In this document: positions 25,547 through 30,699 of the stretch, piece after piece
Position numbering within the stretch: position 1 is the stretch's first letter
How the letters are laid out: each line of letters starts with the position of its first letter
Source: Escherichia coli
GTDB lineage: Bacteria; Pseudomonadota; Gammaproteobacteria; Enterobacterales; Enterobacteriaceae
Assembly (NCBI RefSeq): GCF_048403405.1
Contig: NZ_CP183129.1
DNA: 64,000 bases
Reading direction: 5' to 3' (one strand)
Notes under the pieces: model-generated
The model's input: only the letters and a program-made list of their open reading frames with translations
The model's database searches: none
Told to the model about the DNA's origin: nothing
Made by a program: the position numbers and the translations under genes

Positions 25547-25954
25547 TTATTTTATTGATTTATTTTTACGCGCTTTAAGCATTTCTTCGAAGAGTTTGTT
25601 GAAGTTTTCTACTCTTGCGCGCATTTCAGACAGCAAGGCTTCCTGCTCGGAAGATGGAAGAGCATCGAATAATTCGATCAATTCTTTGTGGTTGGGAGTT
25701 AGCTCTGTTTCCACATGAAGTTCTTGTGCAGGCACTGGTGCCTTGTCTTCGTCACCAAACATTAGCCATGTAGGTGAGCACTTCAGAGCATCCGCTAAAG
25801 CAAACAATCGTTTTCCGACTGGCTGGGTTTCGTCTCTTTCCCATTGTGAAATTGTGACGTGAGCAACTCCAGCGAGGCGCGCAGCTTCTCGTTGTGTTAA
25901 GCGTAATTCTTTTCGTCGCGCCAGAACTCGCTGGCCTAGGGTTCTTGTATCCAT
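25547..25954 (-). CDS. dicA: immunity repressor, HTH_XRE family (DicA-like)
   Basis: 135 aa; HTH LTQREAARLAGVAHVTISQWERDETQP; divergent from a Cro-like gene. Confidence 0.75.
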   Translation of the reverse strand: MDTRTLGQRVLARRKELRLTQREAARLAGVAHVTISQWERDETQPVGKRLFALADALKCSPTWLMFGDEDKAPVPAQELHVETELTPNHKELIELFDALPSSEQEALLSEMRARVENFNKLFEEMLKARKNKSIK

Positions 25955-26025: not shown

Positions 26026-26034
26026 GGGGCTTTG

Positions 26035-26262
26035 ATGCTTAAAGTTGACGCAATTACTTTTTTTGGCAGCAAAACAAAGCTTGCCAATGCCGCAGGAGTG
26101 AGACTGGCAAGTGTTGCTGCTTGGGGGATACTGGTTCCTGAAGGTCGCGCGATGCGTCTACAGGAGGCATCTGGCGGGGAGCTTCAGTATGATCCCAAAG
26201 TTTATGACGAATATCGTAAGACGAAGCGGGCGGGGCGGTTGAACAATGAAAATCACTCCTGA
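26035..26262 (+). CDS. dicC: Cro-like small HTH regulator (DicC-like)
   Basis: About 76 aa, HTH KTKLANAAGVRLASVAAWG; good RBS (AGAGGGGGC) before the ATG. Confidence 0.7.
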   Translation: MLKVDAITFFGSKTKLANAAGVRLASVAAWGILVPEGRAMRLQEASGGELQYDPKVYDEYRKTKRAGRLNNENHS

Positions 26263-26767
26263 ACAGGCTCGTGAGGCTCTGGATGCCTGGATATGTCGAC
26301 CAGGAATGACACAGGAGCAGGCGACGATATTAATCACTGAAGCATTCTGGGCTTTGAAAGAGCGCCCGAACATCGATGTTCAGCGTGTCACATATGAAGG
26401 TGGCGCGGTTGATCAGCGAGCGCTTAGCGTTAATCGAGTGAAGATATTCGAACGCTGGAAGGCTATCGACACCAGGGATAAGCGTGAAAAGTTCACAGCG
26501 CTAGTGCCTGCAATTATGGAGGCTATCCGGATTAGTGATTTCAGGTTGTATCGTGAGATCAGTGATGGAAAAAGTATTACGTACATGATCGCCGGGTTAA
26601 ATAAAGAATATGGCGATGTGGTGGAATCCGGACTGCTTTTTGCAGATCCTGCCGTTGTAGATCGTGAAACTGACGAACTTATAGAAAAAGCAATTGCTTT
26701 CAAGCTTGCGTATCGACAGCAATACCAACAAAAAGCTGGATGGAATTATGAGTCTTCTTTTTGCTGA
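26246..26767 (+). CDS. hypothetical early protein (cII/YdaT-like position)
   Basis: 173-aa ORF between the cro-like and replication genes; no recognisable catalytic motif. Confidence 0.5.
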   Translation: MKITPEQAREALDAWICRPGMTQEQATILITEAFWALKERPNIDVQRVTYEGGAVDQRALSVNRVKIFERWKAIDTRDKREKFTALVPAIMEAIRISDFRLYREISDGKSITYMIAGLNKEYGDVVESGLLFADPAVVDRETDELIEKAIAFKLAYRQQYQQKAGWNYESSFC

Positions 26768-27713
26768 ACGCCCACTGGTTATAAACACGCAGCTGGCAAT
26801 GAAAATCGGCTTAAACGAAGCCATTGTTTTGCAACAACTGCACTACTGGTTGAGAGATACCAACTCCGGTATGGAATGTGATGGTGTTCGCTGGATTTAT
26901 AACACAACGGAACAATGGCTGGAACAGTTCCCATTCTGGTCAGAGTCAACGTTAAAGCGCGCGTTTGCAAGTCTGAAAACGCTGGGGCTTTTGCGTTGTG
27001 AAAAGCTCAATAAATCAAAGCGCGATATGACCAATTTCTACACGATCAACTATGGGAGCGAGCTTTTAGATGGTGGCAAATTGAACGAATCCATCGGTTC
27101 AAAATGCGCCGCTCCATCAGGTCAAAATGACACGATGGAAGAGGTCAAAATGAAACGCTCCATTGGTTCAAAACGACCCAATGTCATCGGGTCAAAATGG
27201 CCTGATGATCTTACAGAGAATACAACAGAGATTACTACAGAGAATAAAAACACTTTTCGTCCGGAAGCTTCGCAACCGGACCCGCAGACGACTGAACAGG
27301 ATTTTTTAACCCGGAACCCCGACGCGGTTGTGTTTAGTGTGAAAAAACGCCAGTGGGGTAGCAGGGAGGATTTGGCGTGTGCGCAGTGGATTTGGGGGCG
27401 GATCGTGAACCTTTACGAACAGGCTGCCAGCGACGATGGAGAGATCATGCGACCAAAAGAGCCTAACTGGACAGCCTGGGCCAATGACGTGCGCACAATG
27501 CGGATGCTGGATGGCAGAAGCCACAGACAAATTTGCGAAATGTTTGGTCGGGTACAGCGGGATCCATTCTGGGTAAAAAACATCATGAGCCCGTCAAAAC
27601 TCCGCGAAAAATGGGACGAACTGGTCATCCGCCTGGGACGTTCACCTGTACAGCGTTGTGTTAATCATATTTCTGAACCGGATACAGAAATTCCGCCTGG
27701 TTTCAGGGGATAA
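26748..27713 (+). CDS. phage replication initiator / replisome organiser (O-like) with internal origin
   Basis: N-terminal winged-helix-like region; the mid-gene DNA carries five iterons, so the protein shows the periodic IGSK/IGSKW motif. Confidence 0.7.
   Translation: MSLLFAERPLVINTQLAMKIGLNEAIVLQQLHYWLRDTNSGMECDGVRWIYNTTEQWLEQFPFWSESTLKRAFASLKTLGLLRCEKLNKSKRDMTNFYTINYGSELLDGGKLNESIGSKCAAPSGQNDTMEEVKMKRSIGSKRPNVIGSKWPDDLTENTTEITTENKNTFRPEASQPDPQTTEQDFLTRNPDAVVFSVKKRQWGSREDLACAQWIWGRIVNLYEQAASDDGEIMRPKEPNWTAWANDVRTMRMLDGRSHRQICEMFGRVQRDPFWVKNIMSPSKLREKWDELVIRLGRSPVQRCVNHISEPDTEIPPGFRG
27090..27200 (+). repeat. origin iterons: five direct repeats of ~TCGGTTCAAAATG spaced 23-25 bp
   Basis: ATCGGTTCAAAATG (27091), ATCAGGTCAAAATG (27115), GAGGTCAAAATG (27141), ATTGGTTCAAAACG (27162), ATCGGGTCAAAATG (27186), followed by an A+T-rich repeat-containing stretch to about 27270. 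Confidence 0.75.
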
Positions 27714-27753: not shown

Positions 27754-28155
27754 GTGGCAAAAGTTTTTACACAAGAAGAGCGGGAAAAAATTAAAGGGCA
27801 GGTTGTTGAACTCGTACGCCGGAGTGGGCGTGAGACGTTACGGCAACTGGAAGTCAAGACAGGTGCGACAAGATATCTGATGAGCGTTCTCGCAAGAGAG
27901 CTGGTTGCCAGCGGCGATGTATACAACTCTGGTTACGGGTTATTCCCGTCTGAACAGGCGCGTAAGGACTGGCAAAATGCCCGTAAAAAGCTCTCAAGGG
28001 CAAAGCTGAAGAAACCATCTGCGGTTGATCCGGACCTTATCTGGTCATTACCTGACGGAGAAATACGTCGCTACGACAGGCGTCAGAACATAATCTGCCG
28101 CGAGTGCCGGAAGAGTGAAGTTATGCAGCGCATACTGGCATTTTATCAGGGATAA
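27754..28155 (+). CDS. hypothetical protein
   Basis: 133-aa ORF with RBS; basic, contains CRECRK; immediately upstream of the AT-rich island. Confidence 0.45.
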   Translation: MAKVFTQEEREKIKGQVVELVRRSGRETLRQLEVKTGATRYLMSVLARELVASGDVYNSGYGLFPSEQARKDWQNARKKLSRAKLKKPSAVDPDLIWSLPDGEIRRYDRRQNIICRECRKSEVMQRILAFYQG

Positions 28156-28636
28156 TGTTAGGTATTTTAGACGTTACTAGATTAAAAAGCATTAGTTCAG
28201 GAGTGAATTGACATTCTCATTTTTCATGGCACAGGGTAGATCTGGCGTGGTTGTCCGCTTTGTGCCAACAGCGGACGTTACTAACGAAACTGTGAGTTAA
28301 AAACGGGAGCTGGTCACCTCCATCCCGCGAAATGGAATTCAAAAATGCCCTCATGTACGGTACTTCTAGTCTGATGTGAGCATTTTCGTGGATTTTTTCG
28401 AGCCACTCCAACGAATGATTACATTCAGTTTCGGGCACTAAAACGTCATAAATCCGCAAGTTGAGGAGTAGCGATCAGCCAATTGGTTAAAAAACAGCTT
28501 TAATTCCCTTTTTCAAGCAGGCTCCTTGTCGCACGTCTGGTGCATCCAATTCATTTCAGTTACCCTGATGCCATACTGGCACGGACTAGCTCTCTTAATT
28601 GGCGCTGGTTTGTTAACCTTGTCCGCTGTCGGGTCT

Positions 28637-28667
28637 TTGTAAGTTGTAATTCCTAAACTAGCATAAT
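28637..28667 (+). promoter_or_regulatory. candidate sigma70 promoter for the RelA/SpoT-domain gene
   Basis: TTGTAA (28637-28642), 19-bp spacer, CATAAT (28662-28667), about 20 bp upstream of the ATG at 28689. Confidence 0.35.
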
Positions 28668-28688
28668 TTTATTATAAGGCCTCTTACT

Positions 28689-29714
28689 ATGCACATTTTA
28701 TCTGTTTCAAAAAAGGAAGTTGGAAGAGCTGGGGATAGATTAGTTTCTCAGTTTGGTACAGGTGAAAAATATAAAGAGGAAGATGTACAAATTCTTCATG
28801 AGTGGAGGATGTTGCATTTATATCCTTTAAGTAAAATACAATTTTATATGGAAAGAGAGGCTATTTCCTTAAACAAAAATGCGTTACTATCCTCTAGAAT
28901 TAAGAGGATGCCTTCCATTGTTACTAAGCTTTCTAGATTTCCTGATATGAAGTTAAATAAGATGCAGGATCTTGGTGGGTGCCGGGCTATTTTAAATAAT
29001 CTGGATCAAGTGTATGATTTAGTTAATAAAATAAAATCATCTAAATTCTCACATGAACTAGTTAGAATGGATGATTACATGATAGACGTGAAAGATTCTG
29101 GTTATAGAAGCTTTCATATGGTCTATTCATTCCAAAATAAAAAATTTCCATCTTTAAATGGGTTGCGCATTGAAATGCAAATAAGAACAGCTATTCAACA
29201 TAGCTGGGCTACAGCAGTTGAAATGGTTGGTTTGTTTCGAAAGGAATCATTGAAATCTGGTTTTGGTGATGCAAGATGGCTTAGGTTTTTTGAATTGGTA
29301 TCAGAGCTTTTTTATAAACTTGAGTATGAAAAAGAACCATCTGGGAGTTATATAAAAATATCAGAAGAATTAAGTTATTTATCCGTCGAGTTGAATGTTT
29401 TCGATATATTAGCTGCTTACAATGCCGTAGTTAGCCATATTGAGGGTAGCAAAAAATATGATAAAGGACTTTGCATAATTGTTGTTGATACCATAAAGCG
29501 GAATATAAATATAAAGAGCTTCGAAAATCACAATCATGCGAAGGCGGCAGAAGCTTATGTCGAGTCTGAAAAATACTGCGCGGAAAATAAAGGCTGTGAA
29601 GTGGCTATGGTTTCTGTTAGTTCAATTAGTGAATTAAAAAATGCATATCCTGCTTACTTTTTAGATACGAAAACTTTTTTAAATTATCTCAGTAGGTATG
29701 TTTTTATAAAATAA
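28689..29714 (+). CDS. RelA/SpoT-domain nucleotidyltransferase (small-alarmone-synthetase / toxSAS-like) with uncharacterised C-terminal domain
   Basis: 341 aa. All synthetase-fold motifs present in order: RIKRMPSIVTK, DLGGCRAIL, YRSFHMVY, EMQIRTAIQHSWATAVE. C-terminal ~150 aa unrecognised. The gene lies in a conspicuously AT-rich island. Confidence 0.8.
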   Translation: MHILSVSKKEVGRAGDRLVSQFGTGEKYKEEDVQILHEWRMLHLYPLSKIQFYMEREAISLNKNALLSSRIKRMPSIVTKLSRFPDMKLNKMQDLGGCRAILNNLDQVYDLVNKIKSSKFSHELVRMDDYMIDVKDSGYRSFHMVYSFQNKKFPSLNGLRIEMQIRTAIQHSWATAVEMVGLFRKESLKSGFGDARWLRFFELVSELFYKLEYEKEPSGSYIKISEELSYLSVELNVFDILAAYNAVVSHIEGSKKYDKGLCIIVVDTIKRNINIKSFENHNHAKAAEAYVESEKYCAENKGCEVAMVSVSSISELKNAYPAYFLDTKTFLNYLSRYVFIK

Positions 29715-30448
29715 AAAATGTTATCTGGAGTGGTCTGAATTCTACTAACTTAGTTTTTTCAGACCGCTTCTGACCACAATGGCCTGTGAGGTTCTGCTGC
29801 TAGTCAACATAAAATAACAAAGCCGGCAGGTGGTGGTTGTTGTAAAGTTATTCAATGACATTCATGGAGGCTTAAGCGAATTATTTGTCCCTGGTCGGTA
29901 TGGTGGCAACAGCTTGTTGCGAGAATTTGGCTAATTTGGACTGACTTCCGCTCCTTGCTCAAAGCGGACTAGAAGGTTAGCTTGTGTCGGACTTTGCGTA
30001 TTAAAAGAAGTGCTGGTGGTGACTAGTGGTTGAGCCCCATTTCCACAGAAAAAATCAGAGAAACTATACCCAATAGTTGTATTGAATCACTGACGAGACA
30101 GCCTCATATTCATCAGGACTGGTGTACGTCCAATACAGGAGGTTGTGGTGCTGGTTCTCAAATGTGCGCTGGCTATTACGGCTGTAATGGCGATTTATTG
30201 TCTTGCTATTGTTCTTATGGATCGCCTTTCTGACTGATTTCATATTGGCGAGGTAAAGGTAGTTAAGTAGAATGGCTGCGGGTGCTTGAGGCTATCTGCC
30301 TCGGGCATGAACACCAAAGGCAGATAGAGAAAAGCCCCAGTTAACATTACGCGTCCTGCAAGACGCTTAACATTAATCTGAGGCCAATTTCATGCTAGAC
30401 ACATGTAGGTTAGCCTCTTACGTGCCGGAAGGCAAGGAGAAGCAGGCT

Positions 30449-30604
30449 ATGAAGCAGCAAAAGGCGATGTTAATCGCCCTGATCGTCATCTGTTTAACCG
30501 TCATAGTGACGGCACTGGTAACGAGGAAAGACCTCTGCGAGGTACGAATCCGAACCGGCCAGACGGAGGTCGCTGTCTTCACAGCTTACGAACCTGAGGA
30601 GTAA
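30449..30604 (+). CDS. hokD: Hok/Gef-family membrane toxin (type I toxin)
   Basis: 51 aa, MKQQKAMLIALIVICLTVIVTALVTRKDLCEVRIRTGQTEVAVFTAYEPEE; embedded in a longer mok-like upstream ORF (30392..). Confidence 0.85.
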   Translation: MKQQKAMLIALIVICLTVIVTALVTRKDLCEVRIRTGQTEVAVFTAYEPEE

Positions 30605-30672
30605 GAGACCCGGCGAGGGAGAAATCCCTCGCCACCTCTGATGTGGCAGGCATCCTCAACGCACCCGCACTT

Positions 30673-30699
30673 AACCCGCTTCGGCGGGTTTTTGTTTTT
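30673..30699 (+). terminator. intrinsic terminator downstream of hok
   Basis: AACCCGCTTCGGCGGGTT hairpin followed by TTTTGTTTTT. Confidence 0.7.

What the first reader, a model, noticed from the sequence alone, without database searches (positions are those of the whole stretch)
27754..30448. The Qin relBE slot is occupied by different cargo
In K-12 Qin, as I recall it, hokD is the last gene of a relB-relE-hokD cluster. Here hok is present (30449..30604) but no RelB/RelE-like ORFs lie upstream; instead there is the RelA/SpoT-domain gene, a 133-aa basic protein (27754..28155) and small ORFs in low-GC DNA. This looks like an accessory-gene swap at a prophage hotspot, and the small neighbours are candidate partners (antitoxin or regulator) for the toxSAS-like protein.
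Basis: partly seen in the sequence, partly recalled or inferred. Interest (0 to 1): 0.6.

Follow-up and report, generated by a model that had tools for sequence, protein, structure and literature searches.

The report
CapRel-type defence gene in prophage slot
In this E. coli Qin-type prophage, the place that holds relBE in strain K-12 carries a single self-contained anti-phage toxin gene of the known CapRel family, sitting in a slot where related prophages keep many different, often defensive, genes.

Summary
hokD is at 30449-30604 and is 100% identical to K-12 HokD. No RelB or RelE homolog exists anywhere in the 64 kb. A 341-aa RelA/SpoT protein (28689-29714) lies upstream in 33% GC DNA.

The swap interpretation is right. 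The stretch between the DUF977 gene and hok is a hypervariable slot. This 1.66-kb cassette (about 28282-29943) occurs in only 40 of 5,426 complete E. coli genomes. The DUF977 gene occurs in 3,919. Other prophages carry DUF4209/PDC-S39, BstA-like, SIR2, DUF5677, QueH and other genes there.

The partner idea is not supported. The protein aligns end to end with CapRel SJ46, a fused toxin-antitoxin whose crystal structure is known. It keeps the ATP-binding arginines, the G-loop tyrosine and the C-terminal YXXY plug. Its homologs stand alone in unrelated contexts. The 133-aa basic protein is a Ren-like backbone gene, and the small ORFs are not conserved.

K-12 is the derived state: its hok lacks the sok/mok region that is intact here.

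In passing, the cassette is bracketed by two 24-nt palindromes of a widespread REP-like family with a strict left-cargo-right order. This is unexplained.

Verdict: a new member of a known kind. No experiments were done.

The parts
27754..28155 (+). DUF977 / Ren-like gene (133 aa, pI 10.0). It is the left backbone flank of the slot, not part of the cargo.
   Evidence: Pfam DUF977 over the full length, E 7.8e-29. PHROG 142 'Ren-like exclusion protein', E 6.5e-45. Present in 3,919 of 5,426 E. coli genomes.
28253..28276 (+). Left 24-nt palindrome GTCCGCTTTGTGCCAACAGCGGAC ('L' type), about 98 nt after the DUF977 stop. Homology to prophages with other cargo ends here, at 28274-28281.
   Evidence: The same element lies 94 nt after DUF977 in IMG/VR prophage contigs.
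28282..28688 (+). Non-coding leader of the cassette (43% GC). No conserved small ORF.
   Evidence: It travels with the gene into another context: L025 is 90.6% identical over 28253-29930. The 38-aa and 80-aa ORFs are frame-broken there. Not annotated in RefSeq.
28689..29714 (+). CapRel-type fused toxSAS gene (341 aa). It is the only substantive gene of the cargo.
   Evidence: PADLOC PDC-S33, E 5e-119, full length. CapRel SJ46 itself hits the same model. PDB 7ZTB/9ERV, E 2.6e-34 over residues 6-338. AF2 model pLDDT 89.4. Foldseek TM 0.68-0.69 to CapRel over about 354 columns.
28875..29243 (+). Coding region for the toxSYNTH catalytic core (residues 63-185), including R70, R99 and Y139.
   Evidence: Pfam RelA_SpoT at 69-175. 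These residues map to R79, R116 and Y155 of CapRel SJ46. They are invariant in 36 homologs.
29439..29624 (+). Coding region for the predicted pseudo-zinc-finger sensor/antitoxin domain (residues 251-312). It is the least conserved part of the protein.
   Evidence: The AF2 secondary structure is strand-strand-helix-strand, as described for CapRel SJ46. Identity to homologs is 35% here against 59% in the catalytic core.
29646..29657 (+). Codons for the YPAY motif (Y320-Y323), the YXXY auto-inhibitory plug.
   Evidence: Aligns to Y352/Y355 of CapRel SJ46. Y320 is present in 36/36 homologs and Y323 in 32/36, with F in the other 4.
29719..29778 (+). Strong stem-loop just after the stop codon (13-bp core at 29727-29770). 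Possibly a transcript-end structure; there is no U-tract on the + strand.
   Evidence: Minimum free energy -27 kcal/mol, z -4.4, 0 of 200 shuffles as stable. Reported as inverted repeat I9.
29946..29969 (+). Right 24-nt palindrome TTCCGCTCCTTGCTCAAAGCGGAC ('R' type). Homology to prophages with other cargo resumes here, at 29944-29957.
29970..30244 (+). Right backbone flank shared by prophages with different cargo. It contains an unannotated 67-aa Cys/Gly-rich ORF (30030-30233).
   Evidence: Homology with L003, L004 and L010. No family hit for the ORF. Not annotated in the RefSeq loci retrieved.
30245..30604 (+). Complete hok/sok/mok locus: promoter-like site at 30245-30273, sok/hok-leader match at 30280-30454, mok-like 70-aa frame at 30392-30604, hokD at 30449-30604.
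   Evidence: Rfam RF01794, 117 bits, full length. PHROG 251 'MokW-like'. HokD 51/51 identical to K-12. K-12 homology starts only at 30435, and K-12 gives no sok match.

Best explanation
The cargo is a one-gene anti-phage module of the CapRel family, a fused toxSAS toxin-antitoxin. It is carried as a moron in the variable slot between the replication/ren-like genes and hok in a Qin-type lambdoid prophage.

Shown here:
- The protein has a RelA/SpoT-type nucleotidyl-pyrophosphotransferase core with the ATP-coordinating arginines and the G-loop tyrosine.
- It has a C-terminal strand-strand-helix-strand domain and a terminal helix pair carrying YPAY. All of this lies in one polypeptide that aligns end to end with CapRel SJ46.
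- The gene has no conserved neighbour.
- The 1.66-kb cassette is rare, low in GC, and replaced by other genes in related prophages.

Inferred from published CapRel SJ46 work:
- In the uninfected lysogen, the C-terminal domain docks on the active site and the YXXY turn blocks ATP binding.
- A protein of an infecting phage binds the variable C-terminal domain and holds the enzyme open.
- The enzyme then pyrophosphorylates tRNA 3' CCA ends, translation stops, and the infection aborts. This protects both the lysogen population and the resident prophage.

The trigger for this clade is unknown. Cargo turnover most likely proceeds by recombination within conserved flanks, including two short palindromes at the cassette borders. 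That last step is also an inference.
For: - Profile and sequence: PADLOC PDC-S33 full length, E 5e-119. CapRel SJ46 hits the same model at 7e-87.
- Solved structures: 7ZTB and 9ERV, E 2.6e-34, query 6-338 against chain 15-370. BLASTP gives 28% identity over 369 columns.
- Functional residues defined experimentally in PMC9712102 are kept: R79/R116/Y155/A351/Y352/Y355 correspond to R70/R99/Y139/A319/Y320/Y323. They are invariant or nearly so in 36 homologs of 34-86% identity.
- Fold: AF2 pLDDT 89.4, pTM 0.87. Foldseek's best hits are CapRel, TM 0.68-0.69 over about 354 columns. The next hits are small alarmone synthetases that cover only about 190 columns.
- The C-terminal domain is the most variable region, as reported for CapRel sensors.
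- Homologs stand alone in four contexts. These are a lambdoid Q-holin slot on the opposite strand, a Klebsiella island beside an integrase and DndB, a Vibrio cassette array, and a Serratia locus beside dCTP-deaminase genes. SJ46 CapRel is also a lone gene.
- Hotspot: 40 against 3,919 of 5,426 genomes. Alternative cargo includes PDC-S39, a BstA-like protein and SIR2. There are 15 cargo clusters in 33 slots.
Against: - No experiment was done. Toxicity, auto-inhibition, the tRNA substrate and any defence phenotype are all inferred.
- Identity to the only characterised relatives is low (28-32%). The sensor domain is too diverged to predict a trigger.
- Some toxSAS enzymes make (pp)pApp or ppGpp rather than modifying tRNA. 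Sequence alone does not settle the substrate.
- The consensus scan found no convincing promoter in the 400-nt leader, so expression in the lysogen is unproven.
Confidence: 0.78

Rival explanations
1. Two-gene system. The RelA/SpoT protein is a free toxin, and the upstream 133-aa basic protein or a small neighbouring ORF is its antitoxin or regulator.
For: Many toxSAS toxins do have a separate small antitoxin (background in PMC9712102). The 133-aa protein is basic, with pI 10.0, and lies on the same strand.
Against: - The 133-aa protein is DUF977/Ren-like.
- It lies 533 nt upstream, outside the cassette boundary.
- It is present in 3,919 genomes against 40 for the cassette and sits next to at least nine other cargo types.
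- The leader ORFs are frame-broken in a 90.6%-identical copy.
- The 67-aa ORF belongs to shared right-flank DNA.
- Homologs in four other contexts share no neighbour.
- The protein carries its own antitoxin-like domain and YXXY motif.
Confidence: 0.04
2. PANGU-like system: a toxSAS effector activated by a nucleoid-associated protein partner that senses phage-induced genome degradation.
For: A 2026 preprint describes YejK-like NAP plus GRel-type toxSAS operons that defend against T4. A basic DNA-binding-looking protein lies upstream here.
Against: - PANGU partners are YejK-like and lie in operons with gaps under 40 bp. Here the upstream protein is DUF977, not YejK-like, and the gap is 533 nt.
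- The effector aligns over its full length with CapRel, including the auto-inhibitory C-terminus.
- PANGU effectors are described as a different subfamily, GRel.
Confidence: 0.02
3. Same architecture but different chemistry. The enzyme makes a toxic or signalling nucleotide such as (pp)pApp or (p)ppGpp instead of pyrophosphorylating tRNA.
For: toxSAS enzymes include both kinds (abstract of PMC11782079). The catalytic core also resembles RelP/RelQ alarmone synthetases.
Against: The closest characterised relative over the whole length is CapRel SJ46, deposited as a 'tRNA pyrophosphokinase'. Similarity to the alarmone synthetases covers the core only.
Confidence: 0.12
4. Inert passenger: a decaying or unexpressed gene with no current function.
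For: No promoter was called in the leader. One genome has the cassette interrupted by IS903B, and two keep only 3' remnants.
Against: The ORF is intact and at least 99.8% identical in 40 genomes from poultry, humans, pig and other sources. All catalytic and regulatory residues are preserved.
Confidence: 0.04

Closest known systems
CapRel SJ46 (Salmonella phage SJ46; PDB 7ZTB, 9ERV). A fused toxSAS toxin-antitoxin that senses phage capsid protein and pyrophosphorylates tRNA.
   Same: - Single polypeptide with an N-terminal toxSYNTH domain, helical anchors, a C-terminal pseudo-ZFD-like domain and a YXXY motif.
- Key residues conserved.
- Same PADLOC model (PDC-S33).
- Prophage-borne and encoded as a lone gene.
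   Different: - Only 28-32% identical and 32 residues shorter (341 against 373 aa).
- The sensor domain is highly diverged, so the trigger is probably different.
- Carried by a lambdoid Qin-type prophage rather than a P1-like phage-plasmid.
- Untested experimentally.
K-12 Qin relBE-hokD cluster (type II toxin-antitoxin upstream of hokD).
   Same: Same chromosomal prophage locus and the same backbone genes: dicA/dicC on the left and hokD-rem-ydfU-ydfT on the right. Both carry a toxin module just upstream of hok.
   Different: - No RelB or RelE homolog is present here.
- K-12 has lost the ydaT 3' part, the O-like gene and the DUF977 gene.
- K-12 carries ydfW, flxA, ydfV and relBE instead.
- Its junction at window 30435 removes the hok promoter and the sok/mok region.
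Defence hotspots of P2 and P4 prophages and satellites, and lambdoid morons.
   Same: A fixed position between conserved phage genes holds diverse, mostly single-gene or small defence systems that differ between close relatives (for P2; here).
   Different: The position is different: between the ren-like DUF977 gene and hok, in the nin-region equivalent of a lambdoid prophage. I found no paper describing this particular slot, but the search was limited.
REP/BIME elements and integron attC sites (for the border palindromes only).
   Same: - Like REP/BIME: short GC-rich palindromes, intergenic, many copies per genome, mostly after gene 3' ends, with two variants that pair as close doublets.
- Like attC arrays: co-oriented sites separating single-gene units, with AAC and GTT at the outer edges of a doublet.
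   Different: - The sequence is unlike the E. coli REP sequence as I recall it. That comparison is from memory and was not tested.
- The same 24-mer occurs across Alpha-, Beta- and Gammaproteobacteria.
- Each half is itself a palindrome, unlike attC.
- No integrase or RAYT association was tested.
- No Rfam family matches it.

Membership tests
Fused CapRel toxSAS (CapRel SJ46 type) | RelA/SpoT-type toxSYNTH domain with the ATP-coordinating arginines and the G-loop tyrosine | tested here: met
   Pfam RelA_SpoT at 69-175. R70, R99 and Y139 align to R79, R116 and Y155. They are invariant in 36 homologs.
Fused CapRel toxSAS (CapRel SJ46 type) | Antitoxin-like C-terminal domain (pseudo-ZFD with anchors) fused in the same polypeptide | tested here: met
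   Full-length alignment to 7ZTB. The AF2 model shows strand-strand-helix-strand followed by terminal helices. Foldseek matches CapRel over about 354 columns but other SAS enzymes over only about 190.
Fused CapRel toxSAS (CapRel SJ46 type) | Conserved YXXY auto-inhibitory motif near the C-terminus | tested here: met
   A319-Y320-P321-A322-Y323 aligns to A351-Y352-P-N-Y355. Y320 is present in 36/36 homologs and Y323 in 32/36.
Fused CapRel toxSAS (CapRel SJ46 type) | Encoded as a single ORF with no cognate antitoxin gene | tested here: met
   No conserved neighbour across five contexts. The leader ORFs are not conserved.
Fused CapRel toxSAS (CapRel SJ46 type) | N-terminal domain is toxic alone and neutralised by the C-terminal domain; the full-length protein is non-toxic | not testable with these tools
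   Needs expression experiments.
Fused CapRel toxSAS (CapRel SJ46 type) | Pyrophosphorylates tRNA 3' ends on activation by a phage protein and gives abortive-infection defence | not testable with these tools
   Inferred from CapRel SJ46 only.
PADLOC candidate system PDC-S33 | Full-length match to model PDLC04999 | tested here: met
   E 5.3e-119, residues 4-338 on profile positions 6-342 of 349. CapRel SJ46 hits the same model at 7e-87.
relBE type II toxin-antitoxin | RelB antitoxin and RelE toxin homologs | tested here: not met
   tblastn of K-12 RelB and RelE against the whole window gives best E values of 2.3 and 3.8.
[quoted passage not shown] | hok coding sequence with an overlapping mok frame and the sok / hok-leader RNA region | tested here: met
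   HokD 51/51 identical. A 70-aa in-frame mok-like ORF hits PHROG 251. Rfam sok RF01794 scores 117 bits against a gathering score of 59. The sok match is absent from K-12 hokD.
PANGU type I (NAP plus toxSAS) | YejK-like nucleoid-associated protein gene in the same operon (gap under 40 bp) | tested here: not met
   The upstream protein is DUF977 and the gap is 533 nt. Definition taken.
REP/BIME-like repeat (border palindromes) | Short palindrome, multi-copy, intergenic, biased to gene 3' ends, occurring as paired variants | tested here: met
   More than 120 loci in each of two collections. 211 of 222 copies are intergenic, and convergent gene contexts far outnumber divergent ones. 49 R-L doublets are spaced about 42 nt apart.
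REP/BIME-like repeat (border palindromes) | Association with a RAYT (Y1) transposase in the same genomes | not tested
   Whole genomes were not available to scan.
Integron cassette array (border palindromes) | attC sites with R''/R' core (RYYYAAC ... GTTRRRY) and a nearby IntI integrase | tested here: inconclusive
   AAC(G/T) precedes R and C-GTT follows L, but the full consensus is not met and each half is a palindrome on its own. No integrase cluster recurred among neighbouring ORFs.

The most novel reading that the evidence does not exclude
The two 24-nt palindromes at the cassette borders may be more than passive REP-like repeats. They could be the working sites of a cassette-exchange system. 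The left type has loop GTGCCA. The right type has loop TCGCTCA and is roughly the inverted left type with two diagnostic differences.

Across 240 loci from prophages and chromosomes the elements follow a strict, co-oriented order. Left-cargo-right units sit more than 300 nt apart (119 pairs). Right-left junctions are about 42 nt apart (49 pairs). Mixed orientations are almost absent (7 pairs).

In prophage contigs, the largest ORFs just after left-type palindromes fall into 71 clusters. They include PD-T7-1, a CBASS cyclase, Tmn, Dsr1, PDC-S39 and this CapRel. In chromosomes many units are 0.5-1.1 kb with one small ORF, such as FosA.

If a recombinase or HUH/RAYT-type enzyme acts on these sites, this would be an integron-like route for shuffling defence genes among enterobacterial prophages. 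I found no description of such a route.
Probability: 0.18. Interest if true: 0.75.

Novelty: new member of a known kind. Interest (0 to 1): 0.42.

Why it matters
- It gives a concrete, testable candidate: a diverged CapRel (28% identical to the studied one) with a different sensor domain. It is found in poultry and human E. coli lineages. Its phage trigger could widen what is known about how single-protein immune sensors recognise phages.
- It defines a defence-rich variable slot between the ren-like gene and hok in very common E. coli prophages. Several hypothetical proteins occupy that slot (a 340-aa unknown, DUF5677 and others) and become defence candidates by position.
- It shows that the textbook K-12 relBE-hokD arrangement is a derived, truncated state of a complete hok/sok locus.
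- The palindrome order, if functional, would point to a mechanism for cargo turnover.

Tried and rejected
- Searched for RelB/RelE/YdfV/FlxA in the window: none.
- Tested all small ORFs and flanking proteins against PADLOC, PHROGs and NCBIfam. Nothing suggested an antitoxin or regulator.
- Checked conservation of the leader ORFs in a second context: the frames are broken.
- Considered PANGU (NAP plus toxSAS): rejected on partner family and gene spacing.
- Scanned for promoters and terminators. There was no promoter call in the leader, and site counts were near shuffle expectation.
- Rfam on the region and on four loci with palindrome doublets: no family matches the palindromes.
- Literal search of papers for the palindrome sequence, for PDC-S33 and for WP_000547812: nothing.
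- Looked for a recurrent recombinase next to the palindromes in 120 genome loci. Only common paralogs recurred: LysR, SDR, ABC ATPase, response regulators.
- Looked for compensatory changes in the palindrome arms. Almost none were found: 275 of 277 perfect-arm sites carry the same arms. This argues for sequence-specific recognition or recent copying rather than bare structure, but the loci were selected with that sequence.
- Looked for an empty slot with a single palindrome. I found only a near-empty one in E. coli A20, with 226 nt of non-coding DNA between left and right elements.
- My first left/right count double-counted sites on both strands. It was redone with a one-call-per-site classification.
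Full report
**1. What is there**

The window between 25.5 and 33.5 kb is the immunity, replication and nin-like region of a lambdoid prophage, read on the + strand:
- a dicA-like repressor (25547-25954, minus strand)
- dicC (26032-26262)
- a YdaT-family gene (26246-26767)
- an O-like replisome organiser (26694-27713)
- a 133-aa DUF977 gene (27754-28155)
- a 341-aa RelA/SpoT-domain gene (28689-29714)
- hokD (30449-30604)
- rem, a small hypothetical gene, ydfU and the Q-like antiterminator ydfT

The DNA is 100% identical to several E. coli chromosomes. The flank at 16287-20738 matches the K-12 rspB-ynfP-intQ side at 98%. So this is a fuller relative of the K-12 cryptic prophage Qin, sitting at the same chromosomal site.

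**2. The observation**

- K-12 Qin reads relB-relE-hokD-rem-ydfU-ydfT.
- HokD here is 51/51 identical to K-12 HokD. RelB, RelE, YdfV and FlxA have no match anywhere in the 64 kb, with best E values above 2.
- The RelA/SpoT coding sequence has 32.6% GC against 49.1% for the window. The 133-aa protein has pI 10.0.

**3. Where the swap really is**

Against K-12, homology stops at 26525 (inside ydaT/ydfX) and resumes at 30435, 14 nt before the hok start codon. K-12 is a poor yardstick, because it has lost the replication genes.

Eight other E. coli prophages with the same backbone were compared.
- Left breakpoints fall at 28151-28159, at 28218, or at 28274-28281.
- Right breakpoints fall at 29944-29957, 30095-30105, 30209, or 30252-30268.

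The innermost pair defines a 1.66-kb cassette, about 28282-29943. It holds a 407-nt leader, the 341-aa gene and a 229-nt trailer.

The same unit (28253-29930, 90.6% identical) occurs in an unrelated context next to an ion-channel gene (locus L025). So it moves as a block.

**4. It is a hotspot**

- The cassette is in 40 of 5,426 complete E. coli genomes, always at 99.8% identity or more. The DUF977 gene is in 3,919.
- The same interval elsewhere holds a 340-aa hypothetical protein, a DUF5677 protein, a SIR2 protein with an IS481, or QueH with a methyltransferase fragment. It can also hold nin-like small genes (DUF4014, DUF551), a frameshifted alpha/beta hydrolase in O157:H7, a KilA-N protein, or a 595-aa DUF4209 protein.
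- Three of these match defence models. DUF4209 matches PDC-S39 (E 8e-103). The KilA-N protein matches BstA (3e-21). SIR2 matches weakly.
- In 33 IMG/VR prophage contigs that carry both DUF977 and hok, the slot is 1.6-6.0 kb long. Its largest ORF falls into 15 clusters.

**5. What the gene is**

- Pfam sees only the RelA_SpoT core at residues 69-175.
- The whole protein matches PADLOC candidate PDC-S33 at E 5e-119.
- It also matches the crystal-structure sequences of CapRel SJ46 (7ZTB, 9ERV) at E 2.6e-34. That alignment runs from residue 6 to 338 against 15 to 370.
- CapRel SJ46 itself hits PDC-S33 at 7e-87. So that candidate family is the CapRel family.

The paper on CapRel SJ46 defines the functional residues (PMC9712102).
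- R79 and R116 coordinate adenine.
- Y155 is the G-loop tyrosine.
- Y352 and Y355, the YXXY motif, plug the active site in the auto-inhibited state.

These map to R70, R99, Y139, Y320 and Y323 here. R70, R99, Y139 and Y320 are invariant in 36 homologs of 34-86% identity; Y323 is Y in 32 and F in the other 4.

- An AlphaFold2 model built on that alignment is confident (pLDDT 89.4, pTM 0.87).
- It shows strand-strand-helix-strand at residues 261-310, followed by terminal helices. This matches the published pseudo-zinc-finger description.
- Foldseek ranks CapRel first, with TM 0.68-0.69 over about 354 columns. Ordinary small alarmone synthetases match only the roughly 190-residue core.
- The high rmsd (10-11 Å) would fit a closed model compared with an open crystal form. 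I could not inspect coordinates, so this is conjecture.
- The predicted sensor domain is the least conserved part: 35% identity against 59% in the core.

Overall identity to CapRel SJ46 is 28% by BLASTP and 32% by the HMMER alignment.

**6. No partner**

- The 133-aa basic protein is a full-length DUF977 protein and a member of the PHROG called Ren-like exclusion protein. It lies outside the cassette and goes with all cargo types.
- The 38-aa ORFs and the reverse 80-aa ORF in the leader are broken by indels in the L025 copy.
- The 67-aa ORF at 30030-30233 lies in right-flank DNA shared with other cargo. It has no family hit.
- Homologs of 45-66% identity are solitary in four unrelated contexts. 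One is a different lambdoid slot between Q and the holin, on the opposite strand. One is a Klebsiella island next to an integrase and DndB. One is a Vibrio cassette array. One is a Serratia locus next to HxsD/radical-SAM and dCTP-deaminase genes.
- SJ46 CapRel is also a lone gene.
- A recent preprint describes toxSAS effectors activated by a nucleoid-associated partner, named PANGU. Those partners are YejK-like and sit in tight operons, which is not the case here.

**7. How it most likely works**

The architecture, the residues and the stand-alone arrangement are shown. The rest is inferred from CapRel SJ46.
- The C-terminal domain holds the enzyme shut through the YXXY turn.
- A protein of an infecting phage binds that domain and keeps the enzyme open.
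- ATP-dependent pyrophosphorylation of tRNA 3' ends then stops translation and aborts the infection.

The trigger cannot be predicted. The substrate could also differ, since some toxSAS enzymes make (pp)pApp. Expression is unproven, because the consensus scan called no promoter in the leader. A very stable stem-loop follows the stop codon, at -27 kcal/mol with z -4.4.

**8. The hok side**

Here the hok locus is complete.
- A promoter-like site lies at 30245-30273.
- There is a full-length Rfam sok / hok-leader match at 30280-30454, at 117 bits.
- A 70-aa in-frame mok-like ORF is present.
- DNA similarity to plasmid hok/sok loci starts near 30245-30277.

K-12 homology begins only at 30435, and K-12 hokD gives no sok match. 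The K-12 relBE-hokD arrangement is therefore a derived state that cut off the hok control region.

**9. Seen in passing: border palindromes**

The pattern TCCGC-N8-16-GCGGA occurs only twice in the 64 kb. One copy is at 28254, a left type with loop GTGCCA. The other is at 29947, a right type with loop TTGCTCA, one mismatch from the TCGCTCA consensus of that type. These are exactly the cassette borders.

- Exact-pattern scans of viral and genome collections both hit the 120-locus limit. About 0.14 matches would be expected by chance in the genome collection; this is my own arithmetic.
- Hosts include many Enterobacterales and also Hyphomicrobiales, Nitrosospira, Haliea and Amphritea. Many genomes carry many copies.
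- The elements are intergenic in 211 of 222 cases. They lie mostly after gene 3' ends or between convergent genes.
- No Rfam family matches them.
- No paper in the library prints the sequence.

Their order is strict.
- Left-to-right pairs are always more than 300 nt apart (119 pairs).
- Right-to-left pairs are mostly about 42 nt apart (49 of 61).
- Mixed orientations are rare (7 pairs).

Cargo after left elements in viral loci is extremely diverse: 122 ORFs in 71 clusters. Eight of 20 representatives hit defence models: PD-T7-1, a CBASS cyclase, Tmn (two representatives), Dsr1, PDC-S39, Hp2 and an Aga-like protein. In chromosomes, 22 of 35 units are 530-1100 nt with one small ORF, such as FosA or an RhtC-like exporter. 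E. coli A20 has a near-empty slot with left element, 226 nt, right element.

The arms almost never vary. No recombinase recurred nearby.

These features fit a REP/BIME-like repeat family. Whether the repeats only provide short homology for recombination, or are sites of a dedicated exchange mechanism, remains open.

**10. Verdict**

The swap interpretation is supported. The partner interpretation is not. The gene is a new, untested member of the known CapRel family in a defence-rich prophage slot. I rate overall interest as moderate. The palindrome order is the only element that might be new in kind.

Noticed in passing
window 28253-28276 and 29946-29969; loci L028-L267, L268: Two variants of a 24-nt palindrome (GTCCGCT-N10-AGCGGAC) sit exactly at the cassette borders. 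The family is widespread and intergenic, and follows a strict co-oriented left-cargo-right | left-cargo-right order across 240 loci. Cargo is very diverse and often defence-related. No Rfam family matches it, and I found no mention in the literature.
   Followed up: partly
window 30245-30604 versus K-12 (L002:9120-9289): The hok locus here is complete, with a promoter-like site, a full Rfam sok match and a mok-like frame. K-12 hokD shares DNA only from 14 nt before the start codon and has no sok match. The K-12 relBE junction therefore truncated the hok control region.
   Followed up: yes
window 30030-30233 (+): An unannotated 67-aa ORF with a TTG start and a Cys/Gly-rich C-terminal half (GGCGAGSQMCAGYYGCNGDLLSCYCSYG). 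It lies in the conserved flank upstream of hok and is shared by prophages with different cargo. No family hit. The available copies are too similar to judge whether it is coding.
   Followed up: partly
window 29719-29778: A very stable stem-loop (13-bp core, -27 kcal/mol, z -4.4) lies right after the CapRel-like stop codon. There is no U-tract on the + strand, but an A-run precedes it, which gives a T-run after the hairpin on the minus strand.
   Followed up: partly
loci L011-L015 (E. coli prophages): A 65%-identical homolog of the CapRel-like protein occupies a different lambdoid moron slot, between the Q antiterminator and the holin, on the opposite strand to its neighbours.
   Followed up: partly
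E. coli genomes NZ_CM142782.1, NZ_CP126343.1, NZ_CP073939.1 (hits H137, H145, H146): One copy of the cassette is interrupted by IS903B. Two genomes keep only the last 393 or 81 nt of the cassette next to the right flank, which suggests decay or partial replacement of the cargo.
   Followed up: no
loci L003 (3156-4178) and L004 (3206-4231): Two proteins of almost the same size as the CapRel-like protein fill the same palindrome-bounded slot in other E. coli strains. One is a 340-aa hypothetical protein and one is a 341-aa DUF5677 protein. Neither hits PADLOC. They are candidate unknown defence genes by position.
   Followed up: partly
window 30613-30694 (+): A sub-threshold Rfam match to isrK (25.7 bits against a gathering score of 50) covers the terminator hairpin after hok. 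K-12 gives the same weak match at the equivalent place.
   Followed up: no
L002:10974 (K-12 Qin, between flxA and ydfW): K-12 Qin carries one right-type palindrome just after flxA. It is inverted relative to the prophage backbone, which suggests the ydfV-flxA block is itself an inverted cassette of the same kind.
   Followed up: no
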